Assembly: GCA_044229975.1 (NCBI GenBank)
Contig: JBGARZ010000020.1
Location: 108,036 to 172,035, forward strand
DNA from: Polyangiales bacterium
GTDB taxonomy: Bacteria; Myxococcota_A; Polyangia; Polyangiales; Ga0077539
Direction of reading: 5' to 3'
DNA: 64,000 nucleotides
Positions 31,134 to 64,000 of this stretch are shown here, piece by piece (the first letter of the stretch is position 1; the number at the start of each line of letters is the position of its first letter). The notes under the pieces were generated by a model. The model saw only the letters and a program-made list of their open reading frames with translations. It was not told the DNA's origin and did no database searches. The translations under genes and the position numbers were made by a program.

Positions 31134-31215
31134 GCGAGGATGGCGGAATTGGCAGACGCACTAGCTTGAGGTGCTAGCGAGTAACATCGTGGGGGTTCAA
31201 GTCCCCCTCCTCGCA
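31134..31215 (+). tRNA. tRNA-Leu (anticodon GAG); CCA not encoded
   Basis: Acceptor GCGAGGA/TCCTCGC plus discriminator A, D loop GGAATTGGCAGAC, anticodon arm CTAGC-TTGAGGT-GCTAG, long variable arm, T arm GGGGG-TTCAAGT-CCCCC. Confidence 0.97.
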
Positions 31216-31220
31216 CTCTA

Positions 31221-31263: not shown

Positions 31264-31288
31264 GTTCACCCAAACGGTTCACCCAAAC
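31264..31288 (+). repeat. Direct repeat GTTCACCCAAAC x2, putative integrase arm-type sites
   Basis: Exact 12-mers at 31264 and 31277 near the tRNA end, overlapping the integrase stop. Confidence 0.6.
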
Positions 31289-32591
31289 CTCTGGGCAGGG
31301 GCAGCCGGAACCGCCTCGGGATGAGCTTGAGCTTCCGCATCTCGGCGCACTGCCGCTCCCAGCTCGGGACCGCGTACAGGTGCCGGGCGGTCTGGCTCGA
31401 CGGGGCGTGCGTCCACCGGGCGGCGACGTTCTCCTCCATGCCGGCGTCCGCGCAGAGCGACGCGAGGGTGTGACGGAGGTCATGGATGCGGTGACCCTTG
31501 ATCCCGCACGCCTCCAGGTCGCGCTGGAGGGCGTCCCACACCGCCTGCTGCCAGAGGGGGCCGCCAGCGCCCACGCGCGTCCCGCGCCGTCGCCCTGTTC
31601 CCGCGCGCACGGGCACGAGGAAGTCGGTGGGCGTCGGCGCGGCCCCGTACTCGGCCAGCCACCCCTCGCCCGCCCACCAGTCGAGCACCACGCGCAGGAG
31701 CGGGTGCTCGGGGACCTCGCGGCAGTTCTCCGTCTTCAACGGCGTGACCTCCCGCGTCCGGTGGTGGATCTGGCGGGCGATGGACACGCGCCGGAGCAGC
31801 GGCGTCTCTTCGTCGAGCAGGTCACACCATCGGAGCGCGACGGACTCGGACACACGCGCGCCGGTGAGCAGCAACAAGAACCACATCACCATCCAGCGCG
31901 GTTCGATCGACGGCTCGCCGAGCAACACCTCCACATCGCAGCGCGGCATCCGATAGTCGCGGCGAGCGATGGGGTCCGCGTCGATTGCCTGCGGGCGGAT
32001 GTCGCTCGGGAGCACGGCCGTCGGGTCCTGCACGAGCAGCTTGTGGAACACAGCGCCACGGAGGGCGCGCGCCACGGGGTCGAGGGTGTTGCGGACGGTG
32101 CGCGGCGCGGGTGCGCTCTTGGCGCGTGCCGTCTTGCGCCCGCGCACCAGTTCGAGCCACCGCGCGATGTGCTGCGGGTCCACCTTCGCCACGGACAACG
32201 TTCCGAGGCTCCACCCGTCGGGCGCGGCCAGGGCGAGCGCCGCAACGGTGCGACGACGGTCCTTCGCGGCCTCGGGGTAGGTCTGCTTCGAGAGCCAGTC
32301 GTCGCACCAGCTCGCGACGGTCATCTCTGCCGAAGGCGGCGGAGCAACGGGTTCGCGTGCATCGGGTGCCCAGCTCCCTTCGTCGTACCGCTCCTGGAGG
32401 CGGTGGGCGTACCGCTTCGCGTAGCCCTCGTCGGCGCGCGTGGTGCCGGTGACCGGCTCACCCTCGCGGGTGACCGGATGCTCCAGGCGGGGCGACCGAC
32501 GATCAAGCCCCTTGGGCTCGCGGGAGAGAGTGATGCGCGCGTACCACCGGCCCTTACGGTGGACGGCGCTGCCAGTGCGTGGGCGGGCCAT
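31266..32591 (-). CDS. Tyrosine recombinase/integrase
   Basis: TGARVSE (R), PLKT (K), HDLRH, WTH, HLY catalytic pattern; N-terminal arm-binding-like GRWYARI. Confidence 0.92.
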   Translation of the reverse strand: MARPRTGSAVHRKGRWYARITLSREPKGLDRRSPRLEHPVTREGEPVTGTTRADEGYAKRYAHRLQERYDEGSWAPDAREPVAPPPSAEMTVASWCDDWLSKQTYPEAAKDRRRTVAALALAAPDGWSLGTLSVAKVDPQHIARWLELVRGRKTARAKSAPAPRTVRNTLDPVARALRGAVFHKLLVQDPTAVLPSDIRPQAIDADPIARRDYRMPRCDVEVLLGEPSIEPRWMVMWFLLLLTGARVSESVALRWCDLLDEETPLLRRVSIARQIHHRTREVTPLKTENCREVPEHPLLRVVLDWWAGEGWLAEYGAAPTPTDFLVPVRAGTGRRRGTRVGAGGPLWQQAVWDALQRDLEACGIKGHRIHDLRHTLASLCADAGMEENVAARWTHAPSSQTARHLYAVPSWERQCAEMRKLKLIPRRFRLPLPRGLGEPFG

Positions 32592-32602
32592 CGGGCGGCA
32601 CC

Positions 32603-32938
32603 TTAGCGGACGGAACGGCCAGACGCCGGTCGGTTGTCGATCTCTTCGTCGAGGTCCAGTTGATTGGCGGCACGCGCGCGGCGGACTCCGACGGTGGGCA
32701 TGCGCTCGACCGCAGCGTCAACCGCAGCGGGCTCGACCCAAGTGTCACGGTGGTTGTCCTCGCGAAGGGAGACCGCTCGGGCAAGACACCACGCGCGAAA
32801 GGCACGGGTCGAACTGAAGCCACGACGGCTCGCCTCCGCCTCGATCCGTCGCCAGCGCGGAGCCTCCTGTAGCGGTGCCAGATCCCTGATGATGATGGCC
32901 ACCGCGTCGCGTAGCGGGTCAGCCACGGTCGCCTTCAA
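32603..32938 (-). CDS. Small basic protein, possible excisionase/HTH
   Basis: Immediately upstream of the integrase; EASRRGFSSTRAFRAWC...TWVEPAAVDA resembles MerR-like xis folds. Confidence 0.45.
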   Translation of the reverse strand: MKATVADPLRDAVAIIIRDLAPLQEAPRWRRIEAEASRRGFSSTRAFRAWCLARAVSLREDNHRDTWVEPAAVDAAVERMPTVGVRRARAANQLDLDEEIDNRPASGRSVR

Positions 32939-33100
32939 CGGGTGATCGGTCGCGGATCACAGAAGCCGCTGCGTCACTCGCGAACATGGAGGGCAGAGCA
33001 CCACGAGGCCCTCCTTGGATGGCTCGCGGTTCCTTGGCGCGGCTTGCTTGAAATGGGGTCACGAGACCTTTACGCCCTCAGCGCGGGTGGGCCAGACGAT

Positions 33101-36100
33101 TTACGACGCGAGGGTGACCGCGACGGGAGAGGTGGCGTCGAGGACCGCTTCCAATTGCGCCATGGCCTCATCGGTCAGGTCAGAGAATGCCTTCGGTCGT
33201 CCCTCACGATCGGGGTGAAGAATGTGTTGTGTCCGATGTTCCGACCACCGGAGGGCATGGTCGGCCTGGGCTCCAGCCACGTAGAACCGTCGTTGCCCAC
33301 CGACCTTCGACTCCCGAAGCTCGACTCCGAAATGCTCCAGTGTGACCCGCACCAACCGGATCTGATCCCGATCGATGTCTGCCCGGACGACGATTCCCAA
33401 GGTCTCCAAGATCCGACGGTGGCGCTTGGCGTATGCGGCCACGCGGCCATCCGTGTGAACTTCCGTCGCGGCCCCCCATATTGTCGGGTCACGCGGGAGA
33501 CCTGCCGCATTGAGGATGTCCCCCCATGCGACGCAGTGAAGGTAGGAGAAGCTCGCGTGCGACGCGGGCACCCCTTGGCTCCGTTCTCGCCGGTCCATAG
33601 CCTTGACCGCGTCGGGATCGGTCACGAAGGCCCGGTACTTTGCGAACGCCCGCACCCGCGACGCGAGCTTGGTGTCTGCCACCTCGTTGACGGTCACACC
33701 AGGACCCAACAACTCCCGTGCTCGGTATTTCCGAATGGCGTCGGCGTCCTCCGGCGAGAGGTCGGTGCCGTCCAGCGCGTCGGCCTCGGTGTGCATCAGA
33801 TCACGGGCGGACCAGATCCGACGGGCCTCGGCCTCGCGTACCCGTGCCGCGGTGTCCTTGTGGAACTTCGTGACCTCTCGGCGTTGGCTCTGATCCAGGA
33901 CGCCCGAGGCCTCCAGCGTGGCGGCGTCCTCGGTCTCGGTAACGCCCGCTCCCTGACCTCGCAGATACGCCAGCAGCGCCCATCGACGGTCGCCGCCCGG
34001 GCCGCCGGTGCGACGCTCATAGGACAACACTTCCGCGTAGAGCCGGTTGTGGTCCGTACGCCAAGGATCACGGACGGCTGCCCCGTCGTGATAGACGATC
34101 TCGTCCACCACATGCTGTTGCACCGTGACCACCCCATCGGGGGAAAGCACGCGAACCGTCGTGTCCCCGGCGGCCAACAGCCCGTCGTAGATCCGCTGGG
34201 GGTCCGTCTCACGGGTCCCGCGTTGGCCTGGGGGGCAGTGAATCCGCACTTCGGTCGAACGAGGATGACGGACGCGGTGAGCTGCCTGGAGAAGGTCGTG
34301 GACGGTGCCGACGCCCTCGGCGGAGTAGACGTAGATCTGGTCGTAGTGGTCACGAACCGTGATGCTGAATCCCGAGCCCAACGTGGCCGTGTAGATGAGG
34401 GCGTCGTACGGGATCAACGGGTCGTTGAGGAACGCCTTGACCCTCGGGTCGGCGCGGACGGTCGTCGAGTTGATGAGCAACACGGAGGCTTCGGGGCGAA
34501 CCCGGAGGAGTTCATCCCGGAGCCACCCGACATCCATCGGCGGATCTTTCAGTTGCGTGCCCTTCACCGTGCTCTGGCGTTTCGACTGGCAATGAACGAC
34601 GAGGCGCTTCCCCGCGGCCCAATCGAGAAGAAGATCCCGGTCGGTCAAGGCCCGTACGGAGTCCACCCGATACGTGAACATCGGGATCGCAGGCAAGCAT
34701 CGCAATTCTTGATCGCGAGCGTCGTCGGGGTCGATTCCGAGAAGCTCCCGTGCAAGGCGGAAGGACCACGGATCGAGGTCGGCGTCCGCGATCACCACCT
34801 GTTCTGCGTTCTCGCAGAGACCTCGCAGTTGCCGGTGAACAGCCTCCGACTGAGGTCCTGAGAGCGTGGCACTGAAAAGGTGTCTGAGCGCCTGGGTGAA
34901 CTCGTCCAACACCACGAGGGCCGGGCGGATCGGCACCACGGTCCCGTCGGGTGTGGTGGTGCATGAGACGATCCGAAGCACCGAGTCCAGGCAGACGGCG
35001 AGGTCGCCCTCGACCCGGCGGGGTACACCGGGGTCCAGATAGCAGATCACCTGAAACCTCTGTGCCGCCTGCTGGGCGATGGTCTGGCGGTGGCTGATCA
35101 CCAGCACCGAGCCGGTGGCTCCCGAGGCACGGACCGCGTCGATGGCCCTTCGAATGACCTCGGTCTTCCCGGTGCCCTTGTCCGCGTGGAACCCGGTGAG
35201 GCGTGCCCGCAGTGGCTCGTACGGCAGATACCGACCCTCCACGAGCTCGTCGGCCCGATACACCCGCAGTCCCCCGACGGCTTCGAGGTCCCGCATGAGG
35301 GAGTTCCGAGAGGTGTTTTCGACGCCCGAGGGGGGGGTCGCACAATGGTCTCTTCTATTATTGTTGACACCATTTGTGCGACCCCCCCTAACTCCTTTGA
35401 GTGACACAGCATTTTCGGCTTCCGCCGCTTCTGTGCGCCCCCCCTTGGTCGCCGCCGCCGAGGGGCACCTCGAAGATCCCGGTGGCCGTCTCTCGAATCC
35501 CTCTGGGAACCCGTCGCGGTGCCAGAAACTCGTGTTGAGCTTCCACGACCGAAGCCACACGCGGCCATCGGCGTCGTGCCGAAGGACGCACGAACTCCCA
35601 TCGAGGTAGGTTTCGCCAGCCCGGCGCGGTTCCACTTGCCACGGGTTGCCGATGGGGCTGAACTCCGACCCCACAGGCACGTTCCCACGGGTCCACGTCA
35701 GGAGGTCAACGCCCGCCGTCGGGTGGAGCACCTGCGAGAAGTCCACGGTCACGTTCGCCCAAGAAGCAGCGCCGCTCCCCTTGCCCGTCGTGGTGTCCCG
35801 GACCTTCGACGCCCGTCGCATCTTCGCAGCGATGTCGCCGGGCACGGGCAGCGACGGCCATCGGGCCCGGTGAGACGGCTTGTCCACGGCCATGACCGTC
35901 TCTGCTTCGGACAGAATCGGCGCGAGGTCGAGGAGGGTGTCCGCAGCCTCGCCGCACCCACGAGCAGGCGGAACCCCGCCCCAATCACCTTCGCCCGCGA
36001 TTCGGGATGCGGGGTGCGACGGCAGGTAGAAGAGCCGCCCGTCCATCGCACGGGAGTCACAGGAGGGTTCCCCTGGTTTCACGGAGTCGAGGGGCAGACC

Positions 36101-36682
36101 CGCATCGATCAACTTCCGCCGCCCCCACCACCACGCCCGACAGGCGTCCTCGAAGGTAGTCGGTGCGGCGAGCAAGAGCACCACTCGAACGGATGCGTAC
36201 CCGTCTTTGCACGACCACGTCGTCCAAACCAGACGGCGGAGGCCGATGAAGGCCCTGTTGATGATATCCGACACGTCCTGGACAGAGAGCCCAACTGCGT
36301 CGAGATCGAAGGGGAGCATCACCCAGAGAGCCTGCTGGCATGAGACACCCCGTTTGGCACCGTTCGGGAGGCGATATGGTAGAACGCCCCGGGCGCACTC
36401 CTTCATCTTCAGGGGGTTCTTCTTCGTATGGGCTTTGTCTGCCCATGTGAACCTGTCCTTCTTGTTCGCGATAGCCTGTGGGAACAGAAGGGCTCGTACC
36501 GAGAGCCCCCAACCCTGCGGGGAAACGTCGATCACGACGTGATCCACTCGCCGCGGACACTCCATTCTTGGTGCGATATCGAGGACGACTTCGACGGCTT
36601 CGTTCGCATTGGAAGGACTATCGTTTGTGGTATTGTGAGTTGTCACGTCGTTGGTCCTTGCGAGCCCCGCCCTTGTCGCCAA
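33101..36682 (-). CDS. Replication protein: primase-polymerase-like N-terminus plus UL9/CyRepA1-type SF2 helicase
   Basis: FDLD...WTTWS...VRVVLLL...RLFYLP (AEP-like); HADKGTGKT, VISHRQTIA, VLDEF, ADADL, IYTATLGSGFSI, QAAHRVR (SF2). Start uncertain. Confidence 0.75.
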   Translation of the reverse strand: MATRAGLARTNDVTTHNTTNDSPSNANEAVEVVLDIAPRMECPRRVDHVVIDVSPQGWGLSVRALLFPQAIANKKDRFTWADKAHTKKNPLKMKECARGVLPYRLPNGAKRGVSCQQALWVMLPFDLDAVGLSVQDVSDIINRAFIGLRRLVWTTWSCKDGYASVRVVLLLAAPTTFEDACRAWWWGRRKLIDAGLPLDSVKPGEPSCDSRAMDGRLFYLPSHPASRIAGEGDWGGVPPARGCGEAADTLLDLAPILSEAETVMAVDKPSHRARWPSLPVPGDIAAKMRRASKVRDTTTGKGSGAASWANVTVDFSQVLHPTAGVDLLTWTRGNVPVGSEFSPIGNPWQVEPRRAGETYLDGSSCVLRHDADGRVWLRSWKLNTSFWHRDGFPEGFERRPPGSSRCPSAAATKGGRTEAAEAENAVSLKGVRGGRTNGVNNNRRDHCATPPSGVENTSRNSLMRDLEAVGGLRVYRADELVEGRYLPYEPLRARLTGFHADKGTGKTEVIRRAIDAVRASGATGSVLVISHRQTIAQQAAQRFQVICYLDPGVPRRVEGDLAVCLDSVLRIVSCTTTPDGTVVPIRPALVVLDEFTQALRHLFSATLSGPQSEAVHRQLRGLCENAEQVVIADADLDPWSFRLARELLGIDPDDARDQELRCLPAIPMFTYRVDSVRALTDRDLLLDWAAGKRLVVHCQSKRQSTVKGTQLKDPPMDVGWLRDELLRVRPEASVLLINSTTVRADPRVKAFLNDPLIPYDALIYTATLGSGFSITVRDHYDQIYVYSAEGVGTVHDLLQAAHRVRHPRSTEVRIHCPPGQRGTRETDPQRIYDGLLAAGDTTVRVLSPDGVVTVQQHVVDEIVYHDGAAVRDPWRTDHNRLYAEVLSYERRTGGPGGDRRWALLAYLRGQGAGVTETEDAATLEASGVLDQSQRREVTKFHKDTAARVREAEARRIWSARDLMHTEADALDGTDLSPEDADAIRKYRARELLGPGVTVNEVADTKLASRVRAFAKYRAFVTDPDAVKAMDRRERSQGVPASHASFSYLHCVAWGDILNAAGLPRDPTIWGAATEVHTDGRVAAYAKRHRRILETLGIVVRADIDRDQIRLVRVTLEHFGVELRESKVGGQRRFYVAGAQADHALRWSEHRTQHILHPDREGRPKAFSDLTDEAMAQLEAVLDATSPVAVTLAS
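35331..35445. other. Candidate replication origin inside the rep gene
   Basis: Perfect 15-bp inverted repeat (35331-35345 / 35374-35388) around a 28-bp AT-rich spacer; third degenerate box at 35432-35445. Confidence 0.55.
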
Positions 36683-36777
36683 ACAAGGGGGCGGGGCATC
36701 GCCTTTTGGGGGTTATGGGTTCATCTGGATGAGCGTTCGGTTGTCCGCGAGAGGGCACCGCCACCGCGCCACACGCC

Positions 36778-36996
36778 TCATGGCGTCCCCTCGATGAGCC
36801 TCTCGACCGCGAGCACATCCACCCTCACGGCCCGACCCAGACGGAGCGGGGCGATGCCCAGCCGACGAAGGGTTCTCTCGACCGTTCGCGGGCTGCACTT
36901 CCACCTCGCGGATGCCTGCTCGACCGTCATCCACAGGCGGTCGGTGTTCGGGGCCTGGGAGGGGGACGAGGGGGGTGTCGGGACGGGTGTGGTCAT
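36778..36996 (-). CDS. HTH_17/excisionase-like DNA-binding protein
   Basis: WMTVEQASARWKCSPRTVER...LRLGRAVRV; RBS GGAGG before ATG 36996. Confidence 0.75.
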   Translation of the reverse strand: MTTPVPTPPSSPSQAPNTDRLWMTVEQASARWKCSPRTVERTLRRLGIAPLRLGRAVRVDVLAVERLIEGTP

Positions 36997-37493
36997 CGGC
37001 TTGCTCCTCCAAGGGCGCGCCGATAGGCCAAGTACCGAGGGGACGGCCCCGGACGGCGCGCGGTGCCGTGCGTTCGTCGCGGGTGCGTCGGGTGAAGGGG
37101 AGTCGGTGCGGGTCATGAACCCTTTACGCACTCGACGTGGGGGGACGGTCGAATTCGTCCTCCATCTGAACCGACATCGACTCGGTGGTCTTGAAACGTG
37201 ATTTCGTCCCGCCGGGACTACTCGGGGGACGTCGGGGGGACGACAGACGCCCTGGGGGCATCAGGCAAAAGGGGGGTTTGCAGGGGTTTAGTGACCTTTT
37301 CGAGGTGGCTCCCCCCGGTTCATAAGAACCGCAAAGATAAGTTCCGACCCCCCCGGTCCTACCCCCAAAAGGCTCTATCGATCCGGCAAGGATTTTCTGA
37401 GGGCCTTGGCTTCAATGGGGTTCGGCCTGCCTTCACCGCAGCCTGCCCCGCGCCCGGCCTCGGGGAGGTTCCGTGGGAATCGGCAGGGCGGCA

Positions 37494-37559
37494 GTCGATC
37501 TCGCTAAACACCGCCCCGCGAGAGTTGTGAGGAGGTGGGAGGGGAACGGCTCGCTGACC
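37494..37559 (+). promoter_or_regulatory. Conserved motif copy 1: TCGCTAAACACC-N8-AGAGTTG...GGGGAACGG
   Basis: Three copies with identical spacing; this copy is upstream of the AAA ATPase. Confidence 0.65.
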
Positions 37560-37609
37560 CATTGTGGGCAGGAGTGTCGTCGCCTCATCCCCACCGAAAA
37601 CAACGACCT

Positions 37610-38752
37610 ATGACCACGACCCTCACATCCAACGGCACGCTCGGCCCCACCCTCGACGCGACCAACCTCGCCACCGTGCTGGGCCACGTCCTTGAGGCGA
37701 ACGCCCTGGCGACCGCCTACTGTGAGCTCCCGACGCCCGTGTGCATCTGGGGCCCGCACGGCATCGGCAAGACCGCCCTCGTGAGGGAGCTCGCTCGCAC
37801 CCGGGGTTGGGGCTTCGTCGTCGTAGCACCGGCACAGATCGAGGAGCTCGGGGACCTCCATGGTCTGCCCACGCGCATCGACGGCGGGACCGGCGAAGCC
37901 AAGGACGGGCGCACGGGCTTCCTGCCGCCCACCTGGGTCCCGACCCAGAAGGGCCCCGGCATCCTCCTGTTGGACGATTTGAACCGCGGGGACGTTCGCG
38001 TGTTGTCCGCCCTCATGCAGCTCCTCCAGACGCACCGCCTGTACTCCTGGTCGTTGCCTCCCGGATGGCAGATCGTCTGCACCGCGAACCCGGACAGCGG
38101 GTCGTACGCCGTGACGCCGATGGACGACGCGATGCTCACCCGGATGGTGCACTTCACGATGACCTTCGACGCGAGGGTCTGGGCGCGGTGGGCCCACGAC
38201 GCCGGGATCGACCCCCGCTGCATCGAGTTCGTGACGACGTACCCCGAGGCTGTTCTTGGTCGGCGTACGACGCCCCGCACGCTGGTGCAGTTGTTCCGCC
38301 TCGTCGCCCCGATCCGCGACTTCAACAGCGCCCGCGAGCTCGTCTCCAGGCTCGCGCATTCGACCCTCGACGTTGGTACCGCGGCGTCGTTCGTGAGCTT
38401 TGTCTGTGTCGAACAACACCAGCTCGCCACCGCCAAGGACATCCTCGACGCCGCCACCCCTGCGGACGCGCGCAAGCACATCATCAACGCCGCGACCGAC
38501 CACACTCAGGGAGGGCGGCTTCGCATCGACCGTGTGGGGCTGGTGATCGCTCGCATCGAAGAGGTGATCGAGGCCGACGACTACACCCCCGGCCCCCGGC
38601 ACCCGGCCAATCTCTCGGCCCTACTCGCGAGCGCGGAGGTGCCGCGGGACATGGCGATGCGCCTGCACCGCGCCCTCGCACGACGGGGCCTCGGGCATCT
38701 CGTGCGAGACCGCGCCGTTGCGAAGCGCCTCCTCAACGAGGGGGCGTCGTGA
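37610..38752 (+). CDS. AAA+ ATPase (MoxR-related, partner of DUF2201-VWA)
   Basis: CIWGPHGIGKT, PPTW, ILLLDDLNRGD, IVCTANP, MDDAMLTR, TPRT. Confidence 0.85.
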   Translation: MTTTLTSNGTLGPTLDATNLATVLGHVLEANALATAYCELPTPVCIWGPHGIGKTALVRELARTRGWGFVVVAPAQIEELGDLHGLPTRIDGGTGEAKDGRTGFLPPTWVPTQKGPGILLLDDLNRGDVRVLSALMQLLQTHRLYSWSLPPGWQIVCTANPDSGSYAVTPMDDAMLTRMVHFTMTFDARVWARWAHDAGIDPRCIEFVTTYPEAVLGRRTTPRTLVQLFRLVAPIRDFNSARELVSRLAHSTLDVGTAASFVSFVCVEQHQLATAKDILDAATPADARKHIINAATDHTQGGRLRIDRVGLVIARIEEVIEADDYTPGPRHPANLSALLASAEVPRDMAMRLHRALARRGLGHLVRDRAVAKRLLNEGAS

Positions 38753-39963
38753 TGGTGGCCCGTGAGCCCGTCACCATCACCGACGATGAGTGCTGCGAGC
38801 TCCTCGCGACCGCGTCGTGGGACCTCGGCCGCAAGCTCCCCTTCTACGGGCACGTCCTCGCCGCGTTCGACCGCGTCGTTGGTGTCTCCGTTCCCACCGC
38901 CGCCGTGGGTGCGGGTCACGAAGGGCAGCCCACGCTCTTCCTCAACCCAACGTTCTTCGGGGCCACGCTGCGACGCGACGAGCACCGCATCGCGGTCCTC
39001 GAACACGAGGTCCTTCACGTGGTCTGCGGCCACTTGCGGTTGAACACCGCCGAGATGCCCGACGCCCGGCGAAGGGCCATCTCGATGGACATCGTGGTCA
39101 ACCAGTACGTTTCGCACCCGCTCCCACGCGGCGCGGTCACCCTCGCGGCGTTCAAGGACTTCCCCGCCGGGCTCACCGTCGAGAGCTACTACCGCCTGTT
39201 GTCCAAGATCCCCGACGAGGAGCTCGCGAGGTTCGGGCGGGACCTTTCCCGCGGGCACAACCGCTGGAGCGACCCTCAAACAGACGAGAGCGGGCAACGG
39301 CTCGTGGACACGCTCGACGAGATCGTCACCGAGGCCCTGCGTCGGGCTGAACGCGATGGGAGCTTCGACTCCCTCGCCAAGCCGCTGCGGCTGTCGCTCT
39401 TGCGGGGTCGTCTCTCTCCCGTGGGTGCCACCGACTGGCGGCGTGCCCTGCGGCTCTTCAGTGCCCGCGCCCTCCGTGCTGGTGTGCGCGCCACCAACCA
39501 ACGGGAGTCCCGCCGCTACGGAGCCTCCACGGGCGACTGGCGGGGTCCAATCGTGCCGGGCCTCCGTCGCGGTCGCAGACCCTCCTTGGCGGTGGCCATC
39601 GACACGTCGGGTTCGATCCCGATCGACACTGTCGGGAGGTTCTACGAGGAGGTCGGGCGCATCGTCGCCGCCGGAGCCACCGTCCACATCATCGAGTGCG
39701 ACCTCGCGGTGCAGCGCACCTACCCGTGGACAGGGGTGCCGCCCACGCACTCCACGGGCGGCGGTGGGACGAACTTCGACCCCGTCTTCCGGTGGCTCAT
39801 CAACGAGGGCCGCCGGTTGAACCTCTCGGGCTGCGTGTACCTCACCGACGGTCACGCCCCGCGCCCTCTTGTACGCCCGCCGGTCCCGGTGCTCTGGGCG
39901 GTCACCGCCAACGGGACGAACGCCAACACGGCCTTCGGGCCGAGCATCTCCCTGCCCGCGTAG
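38752..39963 (+). CDS. DUF2201-type metallopeptidase (HEXXH) plus VWA domain protein
   Basis: VLEHEVLHVV, MDIVVNQ, AVAIDTSGSI, GGGGTNFDPVF, YLTDG; TGATG overlap with the ATPase. Confidence 0.85.
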   Translation: MVAREPVTITDDECCELLATASWDLGRKLPFYGHVLAAFDRVVGVSVPTAAVGAGHEGQPTLFLNPTFFGATLRRDEHRIAVLEHEVLHVVCGHLRLNTAEMPDARRRAISMDIVVNQYVSHPLPRGAVTLAAFKDFPAGLTVESYYRLLSKIPDEELARFGRDLSRGHNRWSDPQTDESGQRLVDTLDEIVTEALRRAERDGSFDSLAKPLRLSLLRGRLSPVGATDWRRALRLFSARALRAGVRATNQRESRRYGASTGDWRGPIVPGLRRGRRPSLAVAIDTSGSIPIDTVGRFYEEVGRIVAAGATVHIIECDLAVQRTYPWTGVPPTHSTGGGGTNFDPVFRWLINEGRRLNLSGCVYLTDGHAPRPLVRPPVPVLWAVTANGTNANTAFGPSISLPA

Positions 39964-39966
39964 TTT

Positions 39967-40025
39967 TCGCTAAACACCCCCCTCGCAGAGTTGTTAGGGG
40001 TTGGAAGGGGAACGGTTCAGACCGA
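39967..40025 (+). promoter_or_regulatory. Conserved motif copy 2
   Basis: TCGCTAAACACC-CCCCTCGC-AGAGTTG-TTAGGGGTTGGAAGGGGAACGG. Confidence 0.65.
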
Positions 40026-40093
40026 CGCGGGCACCGGGTGGTGCTCGTCGTCGCGACGACCATCCCGCGCCCGCCATGGTCGAACGCTCGCGT

Positions 40094-40157
40094 GTCGATC
40101 TCGCTAAACACCCACATCCCAGAGTTGATAGGGGGGAAGGGGGACGGAACGCTGACC
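40094..40157 (+). promoter_or_regulatory. Conserved motif copy 3
   Basis: GTCGATC-TCGCTAAACACC-CACATCCC-AGAGTTG-ATAGGGGGGAAGGGGGACGG, upstream of the DUF932-like gene. Confidence 0.65.
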
Positions 40158-40286
40158 GATACGACGCACGGGCGGTCGTCACGGAGAGCCCCGCAACACC
40201 CGCTTCGAGAACCCCCGACCATTCACCGAGAGCACGCGCCCTTGCGCTCTCTCACCCCTCTCTATTCACCGAAAGGAACCGTCTCC

Positions 40287-41366
40287 ATGAACCACGCCGT
40301 CGTCCCCGCCAACATCACCACGCTCGCCCGAACGTCCATCGCCGCCAACACCTCCTCGCCGCCGCCTACCCGGATGCTCAAGGGCCGCTCGTTCGCCAAC
40401 GTGTTCGAGTCCGTGATGACTCGCGCTGGCGAGATGGTCCCCGACCGTGTCGTCCACGTCGCCGACCTGCGTATGACGCCCGAGGGCCACGTCGAGCTCC
40501 CCGGCGGCACGCGCTACCGCCTCAACGACTGGGCTCGCAAGGGCCTCGCCTCGATGCTCGGTCTCCGCTGGGAGACGTGGTTCAAGTCGGCCTCGGGTGA
40601 GGAGCGCGCCGAGGAGGTCAACCGCCGCTTCAGCAGGATTCCGGGCGAGAAGAAGATCCGTGCGTGGCGCGACGACGACGGTGTGGCCGATGGCATCGCC
40701 AGGGCCTTCCTCGCCCCGGGCTTCACGCCCATCGACGACGCCCGGATCTTCGAGCGCATGAACACCATGCTCAAGGGGCTCGTCAGCGAGTACGTGTGGA
40801 CCGCCACGGAGTTCACCGACTCGACGAGCAACTTCACGGCGGTCCACACCGAGGCGTTCGACCTGGACGGCGACCGGCTGCACCCCGGGTTCCATCTCAG
40901 GAACTCAGAGGTGGGTGGGGCGGCGCTGTCCCTCGATGACTACGCCATGAGGCTCGTCTGCATGAACGGGCTCATGGTGCGGGTCGGCGGCAAGCGCTCC
41001 CTCTACCGCACGCACCGCAGCATCGAGGACGACCAGCTCGCGGCTGCCCTCGTGATTGCCGTGGGTCGCCTTCCCCAGCGGTGGCAGGTCTCCTTGGAGT
41101 GGATGCGCGCTGCCAAGGGCCTCGCCGTCGCCCACCCCGACGACGCGGTGGCCGCGATCCTCGGTGATTCCACCGAGGTGCCGAAGGCCCTCATCGAAGA
41201 GGCGCAGCGCGTGGTGCTCCGCGACGGGGATGCGACGCGCTTCGGCGTCGTGCAGGCCATCACACTCACGGCGCATCAGTCGAACCGTAACCCCGACGTG
41301 CGGTTCGCCATGGAGCGCCTCGCGGGCGACTACCTCGCGGCCACGCCCGTCCTCACGGCAGCGTGA
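40287..41366 (+). CDS. DUF932-like phage/plasmid protein
   Basis: RAFL...FTPIDD, GFHLRNSEVG, RLVCMNGL; RBS AAAGGA. Confidence 0.7.
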   Translation: MNHAVVPANITTLARTSIAANTSSPPPTRMLKGRSFANVFESVMTRAGEMVPDRVVHVADLRMTPEGHVELPGGTRYRLNDWARKGLASMLGLRWETWFKSASGEERAEEVNRRFSRIPGEKKIRAWRDDDGVADGIARAFLAPGFTPIDDARIFERMNTMLKGLVSEYVWTATEFTDSTSNFTAVHTEAFDLDGDRLHPGFHLRNSEVGGAALSLDDYAMRLVCMNGLMVRVGGKRSLYRTHRSIEDDQLAAALVIAVGRLPQRWQVSLEWMRAAKGLAVAHPDDAVAAILGDSTEVPKALIEEAQRVVLRDGDATRFGVVQAITLTAHQSNRNPDVRFAMERLAGDYLAATPVLTAA

Positions 41367-42235
41367 CCACGCACCCGGTCGGGCCCCTCATGGACATCAT
41401 CCATGAGGGGCTCGCGGGACCCCCATCGAGGACCGCCGTGATCCTCCCCGACAACTACTCCGTCCGCGGCGCTCGTGGGCGCTTCGATCCGCAGGCGTGG
41501 ATCCGCCATCTCGCGGACCATCCCGCCGACGTTGCTCACCAGATCGAGCTCCTATCCCTCCTCGACGACGAGGTGGTTGAGACCCTGCTGGCCGGCGTGG
41601 ATGTCGGCCCGAGGTACCCGGTGAGGGCGTCGGGCTCGTCCCTGCGTTGGGTGCTTCCGCGGGTGTTCCGTCGGCCCCGTCCGGTGACTGTGCTCGACGT
41701 GAGGTTCTCGACGCACCTCGCGGCCGTACTTGGTCTCGCGGCGTGGGGCGAAGGGCCCGCTGCACGGCGAGTCCGGTCGGGACTCCGCGAGTTGCACCTC
41801 CCGCAGCGGGCTCAGTGGTGGCTGAACGACAGCCTGGAGAGCTTGAACAACCTCGTGCAGTTCACCGCGCCCGGTACCCTTTGGCACCCGGCCGCGACGT
41901 TGCCGCGACGGTTCTTCGTGATGCCGAAGATGAACGAGCTCGACCTCAACGGGGCGGGGCTTGGTGACTTCCGAGTCGCAACCACCGAGTGGAACCTCCC
42001 CGTCGTGACGCGCCTCTCCCTCTCGGGCAACAGCCTCACGAGGGTGCCTGACGCGGTGCTGCGGCTCGACACCCTGGAGGTCCTGAACCTCATGTGCAAC
42101 CCCATGAGGGAGGTGCCCGAGGCCCTCGCGGCCCTCCCGAGGCTGCGCTACCTCGACCTGCGGCAAACCGGCGTCATGTCGCTCCCGGCAGCCTTCGCCG
42201 CCCGCCCCGGACTCCATGTCCAGCGCGGGGACTGA
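41363..42235 (+). CDS. Leucine-rich repeat protein
   Basis: LSLSGNSLTRVP, LEVLNLMCNPMREVP, LRYLDLRQTGVMSLP; GTGA overlap with the DUF932-like gene. Confidence 0.75.
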   Translation: MTTHPVGPLMDIIHEGLAGPPSRTAVILPDNYSVRGARGRFDPQAWIRHLADHPADVAHQIELLSLLDDEVVETLLAGVDVGPRYPVRASGSSLRWVLPRVFRRPRPVTVLDVRFSTHLAAVLGLAAWGEGPAARRVRSGLRELHLPQRAQWWLNDSLESLNNLVQFTAPGTLWHPAATLPRRFFVMPKMNELDLNGAGLGDFRVATTEWNLPVVTRLSLSGNSLTRVPDAVLRLDTLEVLNLMCNPMREVPEALAALPRLRYLDLRQTGVMSLPAAFAARPGLHVQRGD

Positions 42236-42379
42236 CGCCCCCAGACACACGCTCCGACTCGGGTGCCCCGCCACCACGAGTCCGTCCCGATCACGAACGC
42301 CAACCACCTGGGCGGGTCGCCGTCCTTCACGACGGCGCAGCCGCCGCTCCATGTCCGAACGAAATGAGACACGTCCGTC

Positions 42380-42937
42380 ATGAACAACAAGCCACTCTCA
42401 TCTGTTCCGTTCCCGAACTCCACCCCGGAAGGGAGGTTCTCCCTCGACGACTCCGACGTGCTGCCCATCAAGTACGCCGGGCACGCGGTGGTGGGCGTCC
42501 TGGTGGGGTGCCGTCCTCAGTGGGTCTCTGTCGCCGTGCGAGACGGGACGTGTGGCGGGTACCACCTCGCACCCCGGCAACCGCGCGACCGCCGCGGCAT
42601 GATGGTCGCCCTCGCGGGCCACGTCGCCCTGTCGATCTACGCCGAGAGGGCAGTCATGGCTGCGGACCTCGCCACATGGGCCGAGGTCACCGACCTCGCC
42701 AGCTTCGCAGACCTGTTCACCCCGGAGGTGCGTGACGACGATCGACAGTTTCGCGACCTCTACGAGCGCCTCTGCGCCGAAGTCCGGGAATTGCTCCTGG
42801 CGCACTGGGCGAGCGTCCTCGTCCTCGCCACCGAGCTCGCAGACTGCGGGCGACTCGAAGGCCCCGAGCTCACCCGGATCGTGCGGGGGGTCACGTCCGC
42901 CCGCCGTCGTCCCGAACTGACGACGCCCGCCGGATGA
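42380..42937 (+). CDS. Stand-alone M41/FtsH-peptidase-like protein with degenerate Zn motif (paralog A)
   Basis: IKYAGHAVVG in place of HEAGHA; MVALAG; VRELLLAHWASVLVLATEL..CGRLEGPEL like the FtsH C-terminus. Confidence 0.6.
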   Translation: MNNKPLSSVPFPNSTPEGRFSLDDSDVLPIKYAGHAVVGVLVGCRPQWVSVAVRDGTCGGYHLAPRQPRDRRGMMVALAGHVALSIYAERAVMAADLATWAEVTDLASFADLFTPEVRDDDRQFRDLYERLCAEVRELLLAHWASVLVLATELADCGRLEGPELTRIVRGVTSARRRPELTTPAG

Positions 42938-43078
42938 AGCGTCTCCAGTGCCCTTCCCACCCACACCAACGAGTCGCCCTCAACCACCCATGACCATCAA
43001 CACTCCCGTTCGATCCCTCTGTTGCGCCTTCGAAACGGCCCTGAAGCCACTCTCTTCAGGAATCCAGGAGCCCCGATC

Positions 43079-44317
43079 ATGACCACCCATCAAGCCTCCC
43101 CCGTCCCGTCGTCCATCCCGACTGAGATCGACGTGAAGATCGACGACCTCAAGTTCGACCCCAAGCTCCAGACGCGGGCGAAGCCCCACGACCGGCAGTA
43201 CGTCATGGGCCTCTGCGAGGTGATCCGGGAGCGAGGGTTCCAGGATTCCATCGTGGTCTTCCGTGATCCCACCGACGGGAGCCAATGGGTGGCGGACGGC
43301 CACGCCCGGGCGGATGCCGCGAGGTCGGCCGGATGCGCCACGATCCGGGCCCGCGTCCACGAAGGTGGACTTCGAGAGGCCTTCGAGTTCGCCCTGGGAG
43401 CCAACGCCACGCACGGTGTCCGCCGGACCAACGCGGACCTTCGCCACACGGTACTGACGGCTCTCGCAGACCCCGGTACGAAGACGTACACGAACGAGAA
43501 GATCGCTGATCTGTGTCACTGCTCCGACCACTACGTCGGCGTTCTCCGCAACAAGCTGGCGGCGACGAGTGGCAACCCGGCGGAAGCTCGCCGCACGGGC
43601 AAGGATGGGAAGTCCTACCCGGCGAGGCGTCCCCGCAAGGCGGCAGTGCCGACCAGATCGAAACCGGCCAGAAGTTCCTCGGTCGCGGTGTCCCCTCCGC
43701 AGACCAGGACCGACTCGCTCGCATCGACGGACGGGGCAGCGGGGTCCAGCATCGCCATCACCAAGGGAGTGCCCACGGAGGCGAGCCACGATGGTCTGAG
43801 CGCCGAGGTGACGACGCCGACCAACTCGACGCACGTCATCCACGAGGTCGTCGGGGTCATCCCGGTTGAGCCGCCCGCGGCCCTCCTGGGAGAAGGCCCC
43901 CACGTGGTCGCCACCCCGAGTGAGGGTGAGCCCACGGCGATGCCGACCGACGCCACGGTGGTCTCCACCCCGGAGGACGTGATCCCGTCCATCACGATTC
44001 CCTCGGCGCTGGGCGAGGACGAGGAAGCTCTGTTGGGACAGCTCCTCAGCATCTGCGCGAAGATTCACGCCCGTCGCCAGCGCCAACCGGAGGTGACCGT
44101 CCGGGAGGACCTCGTTCGGGCGGCCCGCGAGAAGGTCGCGCGATGCCTGGACGAGTGCTACCCGGATACGCGGGACACCGTTCACGGGAAGCTCACCAAC
44201 GCCCCGGCCCGGTTCTACGAGATGATGGGTTACAACCCCCGTCCCGGTCACGGGAGTGACGAGGCAATTCTGGGCGTGCTCTCGGCGGAGATCGACCAGG
44301 AGCGCCTGACCACCTGA
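43079..44317 (+). CDS. ParB/Srx-like N-terminal domain plus HTH and low-complexity tail
   Basis: LQTR, IVVF, WVADGHAR, ANATHG.RRT.AD, NEKIADLCHCSDHYV; RBS AGGAG. Confidence 0.75.
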   Translation: MTTHQASPVPSSIPTEIDVKIDDLKFDPKLQTRAKPHDRQYVMGLCEVIRERGFQDSIVVFRDPTDGSQWVADGHARADAARSAGCATIRARVHEGGLREAFEFALGANATHGVRRTNADLRHTVLTALADPGTKTYTNEKIADLCHCSDHYVGVLRNKLAATSGNPAEARRTGKDGKSYPARRPRKAAVPTRSKPARSSSVAVSPPQTRTDSLASTDGAAGSSIAITKGVPTEASHDGLSAEVTTPTNSTHVIHEVVGVIPVEPPAALLGEGPHVVATPSEGEPTAMPTDATVVSTPEDVIPSITIPSALGEDEEALLGQLLSICAKIHARRQRQPEVTVREDLVRAAREKVARCLDECYPDTRDTVHGKLTNAPARFYEMMGYNPRPGHGSDEAILGVLSAEIDQERLTT

Positions 44318-44594
44318 CCGCAGGTAGATGCGCGCCTGACCCACTACGGGGCTCCTCGGTGTTGACCGAGGAGCCCCGGCCCGTCGTCCTCGCTGCGAGG
44401 GCGGGGCCGGGGAGCGCCGTGGTCGTCCGCGACCGTCCAGTACCTCAACGAGGACGGGGACACGGGTGAGCGCCGAGGGGCCAACGACGCGGAGAACCGG
44501 AGGGTGATGGTCGCGAGAAAAAATCTCGGGAGGGGGCTCATGCGGGCGTAACGCGCAGTGCAGGACACCAGACCCCCTGCAGAAGGTAAAGCAA

Positions 44595-45455
44595 ATGACG
44601 ACCAACGACGCTATCTCGAATCCGGTCTCGGCCACGCTCCCTGTGCCGGAGGTACCCTCGCTCCTTCTCTTCCGTTCCACACTGGCAATCAAGATGGCCG
44701 GACACGCGGTGGTCGGAGAGGCCATGGGCCGTCGCCCGAGGTCGGTGTGGTTGAATCCCCGTGACGGGATGTACGGAATTTACCGCATCGATAGGCCCAA
44801 AGCGGACGCTGAACTCAGCGCGATGGTCGCCCTCGGTGGGTACGCCGCCCTGAGCATCGCGGATCTGATGGACGAGCCCACGTCCAAGGGCTTCAGGGAG
44901 TCTGCTCTGTGCACCGACGCACACCACGCCTCCATGTACTTTCCCACGGAGGAGAACAACCGCCCTGCACTGGCGCTGCGGCTCCTCCCCTTCGTTCACG
45001 ACTTGCTGCTTCGGCGATGGAACAGGGTGAAGATCGTCGCCGCGTACCTCGATGAACACGGAATGATCGACGGTCCGACCCTGGGACGTCTCGTCTCTGC
45101 GGCCGACAACATCGAAGTGCCGGGCCCTCAGATCGAGGATGCTCAAGTGTTTCCGATCGCCAGTCCCGCGGTCCCCATGAAGGCCGTCGATGCGCATGAG
45201 AGTGCCGTGGTCCGAGACGCAGAGAGCACGCAGGTCAACCCCGCCAAGCCCCAACGGATCGCAAGCGAGTACGATGTGGATCTCCTCCGTGAGGTTCTCG
45301 AAGGCATCGCATCCAAGGAGGTGTCCGTCGAGGAAGCGGTGGCCTTCCTGAAGCCCACGCCGATGCAAGAGATCGCCCTTCGTTCTTTCGCCCGTGAGGG
45401 TTCCACCCTCGCCAAGGCCCTCGACGCCTTCACCTACACCCCGTCGCAGAAGTAG
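44595..45455 (+). CDS. Stand-alone M41/FtsH-peptidase-like protein with degenerate Zn motif (paralog B)
   Basis: IKMAGHAVVG, MVALGG.AALSI, VHDLLLRRWNRV..VAAYL.EHGMIDGPTL; extra C-terminal VLEGIASKEVSVEEA segment. Confidence 0.6.
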   Translation: MTTNDAISNPVSATLPVPEVPSLLLFRSTLAIKMAGHAVVGEAMGRRPRSVWLNPRDGMYGIYRIDRPKADAELSAMVALGGYAALSIADLMDEPTSKGFRESALCTDAHHASMYFPTEENNRPALALRLLPFVHDLLLRRWNRVKIVAAYLDEHGMIDGPTLGRLVSAADNIEVPGPQIEDAQVFPIASPAVPMKAVDAHESAVVRDAESTQVNPAKPQRIASEYDVDLLREVLEGIASKEVSVEEAVAFLKPTPMQEIALRSFAREGSTLAKALDAFTYTPSQK

Positions 45456-47119: not shown

Positions 47120-47308
47120 ATGAACGGAACCGAGTACGGGCACTGCGCCAAGGGCGGCCACACGAAGGACCCCGACCAGAACTACGTGTGCGGCAAACAC
47201 CTCAGCCCCGAGGTCCCCAGTCTCTACACCCACTGCGCCAAGTGCGGCATCAGCTTGGATGAGGAGTCACGCCGTTACGTGTGCGATGCGTGCCTCGTCC
47301 CACGATAG
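47120..47308 (+). CDS. 62-aa Cys/His-rich micro-protein with duplicated Zn-ribbon-like unit
   Basis: Strong RBS AAGGAGAGG; HCAKGGH...YVCGKHL / HCAKCG...YVCDACL. Confidence 0.6.
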   Translation: MNGTEYGHCAKGGHTKDPDQNYVCGKHLSPEVPSLYTHCAKCGISLDEESRRYVCDACLVPR

Positions 47309-47339
47309 TAGCCGCCCGTCCCTCCAGGAACGCCCCGGC

Positions 47340-48104
47340 ATGATCCAGCCCTTCGCCCAAAACACGCTCGACCGGCTCTGGGCGACCTACACTCCCGCGG
47401 ACACCACGAAGGGCTCGCTCCTCCAACCCGAGTACCTCCTCGCGGCCGAGGGGCCGTACAAGGTGTACTTCGCCCCGCTCGGTGTCGTCCCGGAGGCGAC
47501 CGCCCGCGTAGTCCTCCTGGGCCTGACCCCAGGCCTCGCCCAGACCCAACTCGCAGCCAAGACCTTCCTCAACGCCTCCCCTGAGGTGCGGGCCGACACG
47601 ATCGAGTTCGGACGACGGCTCCGTCGGGAGGTGGCGTTCGGGGGGTCGATGCGTGACCTCCTGTGCAGGATGCTGGACGAGATTGACCTCCCCAGGTTGC
47701 TTGGCCTCTCGCGGAGCCAAGAGATCTTCGCGGCTGACGGGGACGACGTCGCCACGACTTCCGCGTTGGTCTACCCAGTATTCACCGGCCCGACGCTGAA
47801 GAATTTCGGCGGCTCTGCCGACCTCGCCCGCGTGGAGCTGTTCCGCGAGATGCTGACGACACTCCTGGCCCCGCGGCTGGCCGCCGCCCCGCGGGCGCTG
47901 ATCATCCCGTTCGGGAAGGCCGCAAGCACCGGGGTGCGCTTCCTGGTTGAGCAGAACGCCGTGGACGAAGCGCAGGTGCTCTGGGAGTTCCCGCACCCCT
48001 CGGGGGCCAACGGCCACCGTGTCCGGCAGTTCGCCCAGGCCAAGGCGGGGCTCCGCAGCCGCGCCGTTGCGTGGGCGATGGCATCGTGGCCGAAGGGCCG
48101 GTAG
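47340..48104 (+). CDS. Uracil-DNA glycosylase superfamily protein
   Basis: VVLLGLTPG (motif A), IIPFGK, FPHPSGANGHR (motif B). Confidence 0.7.
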   Translation: MIQPFAQNTLDRLWATYTPADTTKGSLLQPEYLLAAEGPYKVYFAPLGVVPEATARVVLLGLTPGLAQTQLAAKTFLNASPEVRADTIEFGRRLRREVAFGGSMRDLLCRMLDEIDLPRLLGLSRSQEIFAADGDDVATTSALVYPVFTGPTLKNFGGSADLARVELFREMLTTLLAPRLAAAPRALIIPFGKAASTGVRFLVEQNAVDEAQVLWEFPHPSGANGHRVRQFAQAKAGLRSRAVAWAMASWPKGR

Positions 48105-55044: not shown

Positions 55045-55047
55045 CCC

Positions 55048-58422
<3,375 letters not shown>

Positions 58423-63984: not shown

Positions 63985-64000
63985 GCCCGCTACACCGCAT

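What the first reader, a model, noticed from the sequence alone, without database searches (positions are those of the whole stretch)
37494..45455. Candidate undescribed module: AAA ATPase + DUF2201-VWA + DUF932 + LRR + two pseudo-M41 peptidases around a ParB-like gene, with a triplicated promoter-like motif
Seen: seven co-oriented genes transcribed away from the rep/xis/int block, with two overlapping pairs (TGATG, GTGA) and a bespoke repeated upstream motif. Known: AAA + DUF2201-VWA pairs, DUF932 and ParB-like genes occur in phage early and plasmid leading regions, which are enriched for anti-defence and host-manipulation functions. Inference: this may be an early-expressed protein-remodelling or anti-defence unit, in which the ATPase/VWA-metallopeptidase acts on targets recruited by the LRR and pseudo-peptidase adaptors. 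I do not know this combination as a named system.
Basis: partly seen in the sequence, partly recalled or inferred. Interest (0 to 1): 0.8.

Follow-up and report, generated by a model that had tools for sequence, protein, structure and literature searches.

The report
LRR-ATPase-protease triad on mobile island
The seven genes are a patchwork on a mobile DNA element, but three of them (an ATP-driven motor, a predicted zinc protease with an adhesion domain, and a leucine-rich-repeat protein) travel together across many bacterial groups and likely form an untested sensor-and-cut machine against foreign proteins.

Summary
The genes and the three-copy motif are real, but they are not one module. They form the accessory arm of an integrative element at tRNA-Leu that also carries an Hma defence system. 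The conserved unit is AAA + metallopeptidase-vWA + LRR. In the 80 closest genomic AAA loci, vWA is nearby in 69 and an LRR/cap gene in 48, across six phyla. DUF932, ParB and M41-like genes were found in 0 of 80. Phage relatives keep vWA (78 of 80) but rarely an LRR (2 of 80). The LRR partners share an N-terminal helical cap absent from Pfam, and the cap co-occurs with this ATPase at genome level (9 of 10 versus 0 of 51; in one other genus the same 2 of 221 genomes have both). The protease motif HExxH is intact. DUF932, ParB-like and pseudo-M41 (M41 fold, HExxH lost) are element passengers. The six-family order recurs only in one close sister element. The motif is a conserved, probably promoter-like element, also found in a phage contig. 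Binding and function are untested, and a defence-island signal is weak. The scan noted similar triads before in gut Clostridia, there with a dead peptidase. Verdict: new variant of MoxR-vWA ternary systems.

The parts
31134..31216 (+). tRNA-Leu(GAG), left attachment site of the integrative element that carries the cluster (context)
   Evidence: 68-bp 90% copy on contig C37 read as right end; same site in G006
31266..37131 (-). Element backbone (context): tyrosine integrase 31266-32591, xis-like 32603-32938, CyRepA1-like replication helicase 33101-36682, HTH_17 36778-37131
   Evidence: CyRepA1 187 bits, below its cut-off of 200
37494..37552 (+). Motif copy 1, likely promoter/operator, 57 bp upstream of AAA
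   Evidence: same position in L252 and L279
37610..38752 (+). MoxR-like AAA+ ATPase, 380 aa (core of the triad): Walker A GPHGIGKT, Walker B with two aspartates, sensor-1 N160, arginine finger R178
38752..39963 (+). Metallopeptidase-vWA (DUF2201_N + DUF2201), 403 aa (core of the triad): intact HEVLH, D113, and MIDAS D284/S286/S288/T340/D366
39960..40018 (+). Motif copy 2, upstream of DUF932, shared with sister element L279
40094..40152 (+). Motif copy 3, an extra copy absent from L279 and from contigs in runs X1 and X4
40287..41366 (+). DUF932-like protein, 359 aa: element passenger, inferred to be inserted between vWA and LRR
41438..42235 (+). Short cytoplasmic LRR protein, 265 aa from the corrected start (third member of the triad): N-terminal helical cap plus about 7 LRR strands
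   Evidence: no 19-residue hydrophobic stretch above 1.4
42380..42937 (+). Pseudo-M41 paralogue a, 185 aa: passenger, absent from L279
43079..44317 (+). ParB_N-like protein, 412 aa: element passenger
44347..44378 (.). Perfect hairpin between the ParB-like and M41b genes; kept in L279 with the loop inverted
44595..45455 (+). Pseudo-M41 paralogue b, 286 aa: element passenger, linked to the ParB-like gene in L279, L280 and L037

Best explanation
The stretch is a mosaic arm of a tRNA-Leu-integrated element in which only the AAA ATPase, the metallopeptidase-vWA protein and the capped LRR protein form a widely conserved unit, and that unit likely works as a surveillance machine: the LRR would bind a foreign protein, its cap would dock it on the ATPase-vWA core, and ATP-driven remodelling would unleash the predicted zinc protease. 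Shown: gene linkage, genome co-occurrence, intact catalytic motifs, the cap family, and the passenger status of DUF932, ParB-like and pseudo-M41. From established knowledge (MoxR-vWA pairs such as NorQ-NorD): a hexameric ring that remodels a vWA partner, whose metal site captures a peptide. Inferred and untested: cap docking, protease activity and its activation, the target, and a defensive role. About 0.85 for the mosaic-plus-triad anatomy and about 0.45 for the surveillance mechanism as against a chaperone role.
For: Closest AAA/vWA relatives (G007, G008, G023; 67%/55%) read longLRR-AAA-vWA-shortLRR with no DUF932. In the best 80 of 405 confirmed genomic loci: vWA 69 of 80, LRR/cap gene within 3 kb 48 of 80 (29 of 45 with full flanks), adjacent and co-oriented 41 of 80, DUF932/M41/ParB/int/rep 0 of 80. 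Pfam independently found LRRs in 25 of 53 hand-picked neighbours from 23 loci. LRR-linked loci come from six phyla. Control with phage relatives: vWA 78 of 80, LRR/cap 2 of 80. Background: 4 LRR frames in the 10-Mb own genome. The window's cap is homologous to the distant caps (hhalign 94%, E 1e-7), matches no Pfam family in 46 of 46 members, and has 568 clusters at 50% identity. Cap and AAA clade co-occur in 9 of 10 genomes versus 0 of 51 without the clade, and in the same 2 of 221 genomes of another genus whose caps were not in the seed. HExxH is intact in 64 of 67. Purifying selection against L279: dN/dS 0.20 AAA, 0.26 vWA, 0.32 LRR, versus 0.73 ParB-like and 0.70 M41. Defence-type context: Hma cargo in this element; WYL, NERD-helicase and UvrD genes beside the closest loci; STAND-TPR, TIR and retron-type RT genes at some loci.
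Against: 32 of 80 AAA loci show no LRR/cap gene within 3 kb. Some of those are short contigs, and in G304 and G324 cap-LRR genes lie elsewhere. G314 has a cap-LRR gene but only a weak AAA match (E 1e-18), and G006 has the AAA but no cap found (contig ends inside AAA). The cap and LRR profiles were seeded from some of the loci then counted, so those counts are partly circular. PADLOC hit only 9 of 172 neighbours scanned (of 186) at E 1e-25; four are the RT of one Bacteroidota group and the other five look like paralogue matches to common enzymes (my reading); no control set was run. No enzymatic effector domain is fused to 40 long cap proteins, only LRR, DUF285, BRCT and MORN. The LRR repeats are not clearly more variable than the cap (77% versus 73% against L279). 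The six-family gene order is conserved in sister element L279 at 54-87% identity, so a lineage-specific joint role for DUF932 is not excluded. The quick tree does not establish the LRR-linked ATPases as one clade (support 51).
Confidence: 0.55

Rival explanations
1. The AAA-vWA pair is a dedicated chaperone and processing peptidase for the capped LRR proteins, which are its clients (for example binders used in predation or host contact), and the cap is a recognition tag or a folding cap rather than a sensor's docking site.
For: Characterised MoxR-vWA pairs are remodelling chaperones (PMC7159879 section 8; PMC13036017 abstract). The phage MoxR + metallopeptidase-vWA pair was proposed to act in virion assembly and processing (PMC7824862 passage). 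One AAA-vWA locus accompanies several dispersed cap-LRR genes in G011, G304 and G324. The cap often recurs twice, each time ahead of an LRR block. The defence-island signal is weak.
Against: The window's proteins lack a hydrophobic export or membrane segment. Patchy occurrence (2 of 221 genomes) and carriage on an element beside Hma fit conflict systems better than housekeeping.
Confidence: 0.25
2. One reading: all seven genes form one early-expressed anti-defence or host-remodelling unit with pseudo-peptidase adaptors.
For: The six families keep their order in sister element L279. Close relatives of the genes occur in several metagenome runs. The motif also lies upstream of small genes and a thymidine kinase gene in a phage contig, as an early promoter would. 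M41-like look-alikes are common in phage clusters.
Against: 0 of 80 AAA-clade loci carry DUF932, ParB-like or M41-like matches. 0 of 20 extended DUF932 loci carry AAA, vWA or LRR. ParB-like + M41 occur without the triad. The second M41 copy is missing from L279. The long gaps and the hairpin split the block. Selection on ParB-like and M41 is weak.
Confidence: 0.08
3. LRR genes and the AAA-vWA pair merely share variable islands and do not interact.
For: 32 of 80 loci lack a nearby LRR. Gene order and orientation vary. G314 has a cap gene without the AAA clade.
Against: 41 of 80 loci have the LRR directly adjacent and co-oriented. A specific cap domain tracks this ATPase clade at genome level even when encoded far away.
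Confidence: 0.08

Closest known systems
vWA-MoxR ternary conflict systems (VMAP, iSTAND, FtsH, beta-propeller; PMC7159879; iSTAND2 and TERNS3, PMC8195603)
   Same: MoxR-type ATPase + vWA protein + a system-specific third component with a repeat-type binding surface; patchy distribution; proposed sensing role.
   Different: The third component is a capped LRR protein. The vWA carries an N-terminal metallopeptidase with intact HExxH, not C-terminal variable and often inactive effectors. The system also occurs in small planktonic genomes (about 2 Mb). No LRR or DUF2201 subtype was found in the passages I read.
Phage MoxR AAA+ / metallopeptidase-vWA pair (PHROG 1297 + 1314; jumbo phages, PMC7824862)
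   Same: Same two families; same two-aspartate Walker B (80 of 80 in both sets), intact HExxH and MIDAS.
   Different: About 30-35% identity. LRR/cap neighbour in 2 of 80 versus 48 of 80. Alignment reaches the ATPase C-terminal region in 7 of 80 versus 79 of 80 (could reflect divergence).
NorQ-NorD and other MoxR-vWA chaperone pairs (PMC13036017)
   Same: ATPase ring plus vWA adaptor with a MIDAS site; model for the mechanical step.
   Different: No peptidase and no LRR partner; dedicated metabolic client; canonical glutamate in Walker B (recalled).
P. aeruginosa Arc2 (PMC8926400) and actinobacterial Esr (PMC13622651)
   Same: Experimentally supported defence or threat-sensing clusters that contain a MoxR ATPase and a vWA protein.
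   Different: Partners named in the passages read differ (beta-propeller sensors, kinase and FHA proteins for Esr); no LRR is mentioned there. Homology to this clade was not tested.
FtsH/YME1 peptidase M41 domain
   Same: Fold of the predicted model of M41b.
   Different: Stand-alone domain without AAA or membrane part; HExxH lost.

Membership tests
MoxR-clade AAA+ ATPase | P-loop, Walker B, sensor-1, arginine finger before strand 5 | tested here: met
   G48/G53/K54/T55, D122/D123/N125, N160, R178 invariant in 40 of 40. Walker B has aspartate where most AAA+ have glutamate (recalled norm), in 80 of 80.
MoxR-clade AAA+ ATPase | Helix-2 insert and sequence affinity to the dynein-midasin/MoxR clade | tested here: met
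   Pfam AAA_5 above cut-off; best PDB sequence matches are midasin (E 2e-13); DLxG-loop insert seen in the alignment (motif reading recalled). No structure of the ATPase was modelled.
MoxR-clade AAA+ ATPase | Hexameric ring and ATPase activity | not tested
MoxR-vWA chaperone pair | Adjacent vWA gene with intact MIDAS | tested here: met
   Overlapping genes; D284, S286, S288, T340, D366 invariant in 36 of 36; vWA in 69 of 80 loci.
DUF2201 metallopeptidase-vWA | DUF2201_N with HExxH plus C-terminal DUF2201 | tested here: met
   Both Pfam families above cut-off; HExxH intact in 64 of 67.
DUF2201 metallopeptidase-vWA | Proteolytic activity | not testable with these tools
   Motifs only.
vWA-MoxR ternary conflict systems (PMC7159879) | Conserved third component linked to the pair | tested here: met
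   LRR/cap gene in 48 of 80 loci; genome co-occurrence.
vWA-MoxR ternary conflict systems (PMC7159879) | Third component is VMAP, iSTAND, FtsH-type, beta-propeller, iSTAND2 or TERNS3 | tested here: not met
   The third gene is an LRR protein. The published profiles themselves were not run.
vWA-MoxR ternary conflict systems (PMC7159879) | Variable effector domains fused C-terminal to vWA | tested here: not met
   The vWA domain ends the protein (residues 279-400 of 403); aligned relatives end likewise.
vWA-MoxR ternary conflict systems (PMC7159879) | Enrichment in multicellular bacteria | tested here: inconclusive
   Present in Myxococcota but also in Bacteroidota, Pseudomonadota and others; no statistical test.
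Known anti-phage systems (PADLOC 2.0) | Profile match of the components | tested here: not met
   0 families for all seven proteins.
Peptidase M41 | M41 fold | tested here: met
   Foldseek top hits YME1/FtsH, E 5e-5, TM 0.55-0.62, for M41b only; no Pfam match.
Peptidase M41 | HExxH zinc motif | tested here: not met
   KxAGH in 9 of 9.
ParABS partition system | ParB with a ParA partner and curated ParB score | tested here: not met
   ParB_N 15.9 bits (cut-off 26.3) and TIGR00180 20.4 bits (cut-off 58); no ParA among the element proteins scanned.

The most novel reading that the evidence does not exclude
A widespread, undescribed class of bacterial intracellular LRR-receptor immunity: interchangeable LRR sensors, encoded next to the core or elsewhere in the genome, plug through a dedicated helical cap into a MoxR ring that switches on a zinc metalloprotease. 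This would be an NLR-like logic built without a STAND NTPase, here caught being carried by an integrative element together with Hma.
Probability: 0.3. Interest if true: 0.85.

Novelty: new variant of a known kind. Interest (0 to 1): 0.58.

Why it matters
It replaces a seven-gene guess with a compact three-gene unit (about 1,050 residues, all apparently soluble) that can be tested directly. DUF2201 proteins and their ATPases are common in phages and bacteria yet almost absent from the literature searched (8 papers with passing mentions). If the cap is a docking tag, it gives a handle on what hundreds of orphan cytoplasmic bacterial LRR proteins do. It would also add an LRR-based, protease-armed branch to MoxR-vWA conflict systems. 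The window's LRR is among the shortest members, which makes it a convenient model.

Tried and rejected
ESM Atlas for the cap gave only hits under 0.9, a lead at most. Structure searches with the LRR model returned generic LRR proteins dominated by the repeats; the cap was not folded alone, so nothing is claimed about its fold being new. PDB sequence searches gave nothing for M41-like, vWA or DUF932. The motif has no Rfam match, no stable RNA fold (z -1.1 to +0.5) and is not flagged by the sigma-70 scan; by-eye look-alikes in L056 (E 0.21) and L037 (E 2) are not significant; L282 (E 0.0014 over 27 nt, 56% GC contig) was set aside as probable chance. Joints from copy 1 to copy 3 in read-laying have sides of only 33-56 nt, the motif itself, so they do not show deletion of AAA-vWA. 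No run held more than 12% of the words, and contigs cannot show expression. No M41-family locus was found in viral contigs. A strict regex for LRRs under-counted (30 of 80) and was replaced by profiles. The class-level cap search hit 5 of 301 genomes, with only up to 16 candidates scored per genome. The careful tree did not finish; only the quick tree was read. A multidomain clustering (family F1) chained LRR with TPR/STAND proteins and was not used for counts.
Full report
Setting. The window lies in a 10.0-Mb, about 71% GC genome, probably a myxobacterium (inferred from size, GC and the titles of related records). An integrative element starts at tRNA-Leu(GAG) 31134-31216. Its left arm on the minus strand holds a tyrosine integrase, an xis-like gene, a CyRepA1-like replication helicase and an HTH_17 gene. 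An HmaABC defence system follows at 48528-58422. A 68-bp copy of the tRNA 3' end on contig C37 is read as the right end; joining C26 and C37 across an insertion-sequence-like end is my inference. I saw no capsid or conjugation family among the proteins scanned.

Observation. The seven genes, the AAA/vWA overlap and the three motif copies are real. The GTGA overlap is probably not the LRR start: a sister element has a one-base difference that puts that codon out of frame, while GTG 41438 with its GAGGA site is kept. Gaps of 71-323 bp and a strong hairpin at 44347-44378 argue against one tight operon.

What travels together. Among 61 related genomes, the closest AAA/vWA pairs (G007, G008, G023) read long LRR, AAA, vWA, short LRR, the short one 34-45% identical to the window's LRR, with no DUF932. 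vWA lies nearby in 69 of 80. An LRR or cap gene lies within 3 kb in 48 of 80 (29 of 45 with full flanks), adjacent and co-oriented in 41 of 80. Matches to the window's DUF932, ParB-like, M41-like, integrase or Rep proteins were found in 0 of 80 (tblastn E 1e-4, so distant members could be missed). Pfam found LRRs in 25 of 53 hand-picked neighbours from 23 loci. LRR-linked loci come from Myxococcota, Bacteroidota, Pseudomonadota, Cyanobacteriota, Thermodesulfobacteriota and Verrucomicrobiota (labels). In the best 80 of 489 viral loci, vWA is present in 78 but LRR/cap in only 2. The own genome has 4 LRR frames in 10 Mb by the same profile.

The cap. The LRR partners begin, often twice per protein, with a helical segment of about 100 residues. 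The window's version is homologous by profile comparison with a seed that excluded its close relatives (94%, E 1e-7). It matches no Pfam family (0 of 46), is confidently modelled ahead of the repeats (pLDDT 93), and defines 568 clusters at 50% identity. In 40 long members Pfam finds only LRR, DUF285, BRCT and MORN. At genome level the cap occurs in 9 of the 10 genomes that have this ATPase clade and in 0 of the other 51; this is partly circular, since several seeds came from these genomes. In 221 genomes of the genus of locus L132, whose caps were not in the seed, the same 2 genomes have both and 219 have neither. In G304 and G324 the AAA-vWA locus has no adjacent LRR, but five or six cap matches lie elsewhere. 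Exceptions: G314 (cap, weak ATPase match only) and G006 (ATPase cut by a contig end, no cap found).

Catalytic anatomy. The ATPase keeps the P-loop, sensor-1 and arginine finger; its Walker B has two aspartates in 80 of 80 genomic and 80 of 80 viral relatives, so this is a family trait. The vWA partner keeps HExxH (64 of 67), D113 and the full MIDAS set. None of the seven proteins has a strong hydrophobic segment.

The passengers. DUF932 has close relatives in 11 of 30 genomes of the family. In 20 extended loci (2-20 kb) none has AAA, vWA or LRR; those I annotated carry integrases, coupling-protein-like, sigma-54-activator-like, clamp-like or polymerase genes. M41b has the M41 fold but KxAGH in place of HExxH; only 7 other proteins were found, and look-alikes are frequent in phage-rich clusters. 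ParB-like and M41-like genes are neighbours in L279, L280 and L037, the last two without the triad. One metagenome locus, L279, repeats the order HTH | motif-AAA-vWA-motif-DUF932-LRR-ParB-M41 at 87, 86, 87, 75, 62 and 54% identity, without the first M41 copy and with one motif copy fewer. G006 has integrase, xis, motif and AAA (84%) at the same tRNA. So the long array is a feature of one element lineage. dN/dS against L279 is 0.20 (AAA), 0.26 (vWA), 0.32 (LRR), 0.40 (DUF932), 0.73 (ParB-like) and 0.70 (M41); this is one pair, and GC-rich codon bias inflates the ratios.

The motif. It sits upstream of AAA in three elements and upstream of DUF932 in two, and a single-copy form at the second site occurs in L279 and in contigs of two runs of one study. 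A 50-nt match (E 1e-13) lies in phage contig L281, facing small genes and a thymidine kinase. It is not a structured RNA. A promoter or operator is the likely reading, untested; the sigma-70 scan does not flag it. The simplest history is that DUF932 with its own copy of this element was inserted between vWA and LRR (inference).

Mechanism. In characterised MoxR-vWA pairs the vWA metal site captures a peptide and the ATPase ring remodels the complex (PMC7159879 section 8, read; PMC13036017, abstract only). Here the third subunit is a capped LRR and the vWA carries an apparently active zinc peptidase. I favour: the LRR binds a foreign protein, the cap docks on the core, and ATP-driven remodelling exposes the peptidase. 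For it: accessory, patchy distribution; carriage beside Hma; WYL, NERD-helicase and UvrD neighbours at the closest loci; STAND-TPR, TIR and retron-type RT neighbours at some loci; and tested defence roles for other MoxR-vWA clusters (PMC8926400 and PMC13622651, passages). Against it: PADLOC hit only 9 of 172 neighbours scanned, five of them apparently paralogue matches, with no control set; no fused effectors; repeats not clearly hypervariable. The chaperone-for-LRR-clients reading remains a serious rival.

Literature. Searches for DUF2201/MoxR/vWA, DUF932, and MoxR with LRR, immunity or anti-defence terms found no description of this triad in the open-access library. The two papers holding MoxR, metallopeptidase, vWA and LRR together use LRR in other contexts in the passages shown. 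PMC7824862 (passage) describes the MoxR + metallopeptidase-vWA pair in jumbo phages without LRR. PMC5512222 (term search) has no MoxR, vWA or DUF932. The preprint 10.1101/2023.09.22.558884 and PMC12839542 were seen as passages only. Supplements were not read and may list such neighbourhoods; subscription journals are not covered. The scan's own notes report LRR-vWA-MoxR triads with a helical tag in gut Clostridia, several with a dead peptidase. I did not test whether their tag is homologous to this cap, and these notes are not counted as support.

Verdict. The seven-gene module is not supported; an embedded three-gene LRR / MoxR-like ATPase / metallopeptidase-vWA system is. It works like a MoxR-vWA ternary system but fails membership of the described subtypes. 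New variant of a known kind, interest 0.58.

Noticed in passing
L122:2404-6711, L127:2461-6702, L130:2479-6732, L141:2351-6709 (and same family L139:2363-6709): A 1,410-1,450 aa protein with a retron-type reverse transcriptase domain (PADLOC RT_III-A/Ec107-like, E about 1e-70; Pfam RVT_1 + DUF4116 in L122) lies directly upstream of, and co-oriented with, LRR-AAA-vWA in freshwater-type Bacteroidota records. No search for a retron RNA was made.
   Followed up: partly
L104:6104-13013, L080:9147-14970: DUF4062-STAND(-TPR) NLR-like genes and a TIR gene are co-oriented with the AAA-vWA core.
   Followed up: no
L080, L096, L115, L116 (family F2): In Verrucomicrobiota/Planctomycetota loci the partner genes encode a different short repeat with no Pfam match, some with weak cap matches.
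   Followed up: no
window 48528-58422: Complete HmaABC defence system.
   Followed up: partly
window 47259-48104, 58448-59077, 59129-61255, 61318-63300: Further element cargo: a UDG-superfamily-like protein, an unknown 209-aa protein, a 708-aa protein with weak PADLOC matches at its N-terminus, and an unknown minus-strand protein.
   Followed up: no
window 44347-44378 and L279:9749-9780: The same perfect hairpin has its 6-nt loop in opposite orientations in the two elements, a micro-inversion.
   Followed up: partly
L281:2987-3036: The element's motif occurs in a 21-kb viral contig with thymidine kinase and homing-endonuclease genes, possibly a phage of the same host group.
   Followed up: partly
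G000:C20:520768-523232 and G000:C31:120254-122058: A second, distant AAA + DUF2201-like pair (about 31%, Walker B with glutamates) without an LRR hit, and a second xis + integrase pair related to this element.
   Followed up: no
window 63853-64000: The contig ends in an insertion-sequence-like end that interrupts a pentapeptide-repeat-like gene; C37 appears to continue it.
   Followed up: partly
window 37603/40080 in run X3: One contig joins sequence near motif copy 1 and near copy 3 on opposite strands (side 104 nt), hinting at an inverted arrangement in a related element.
   Followed up: no
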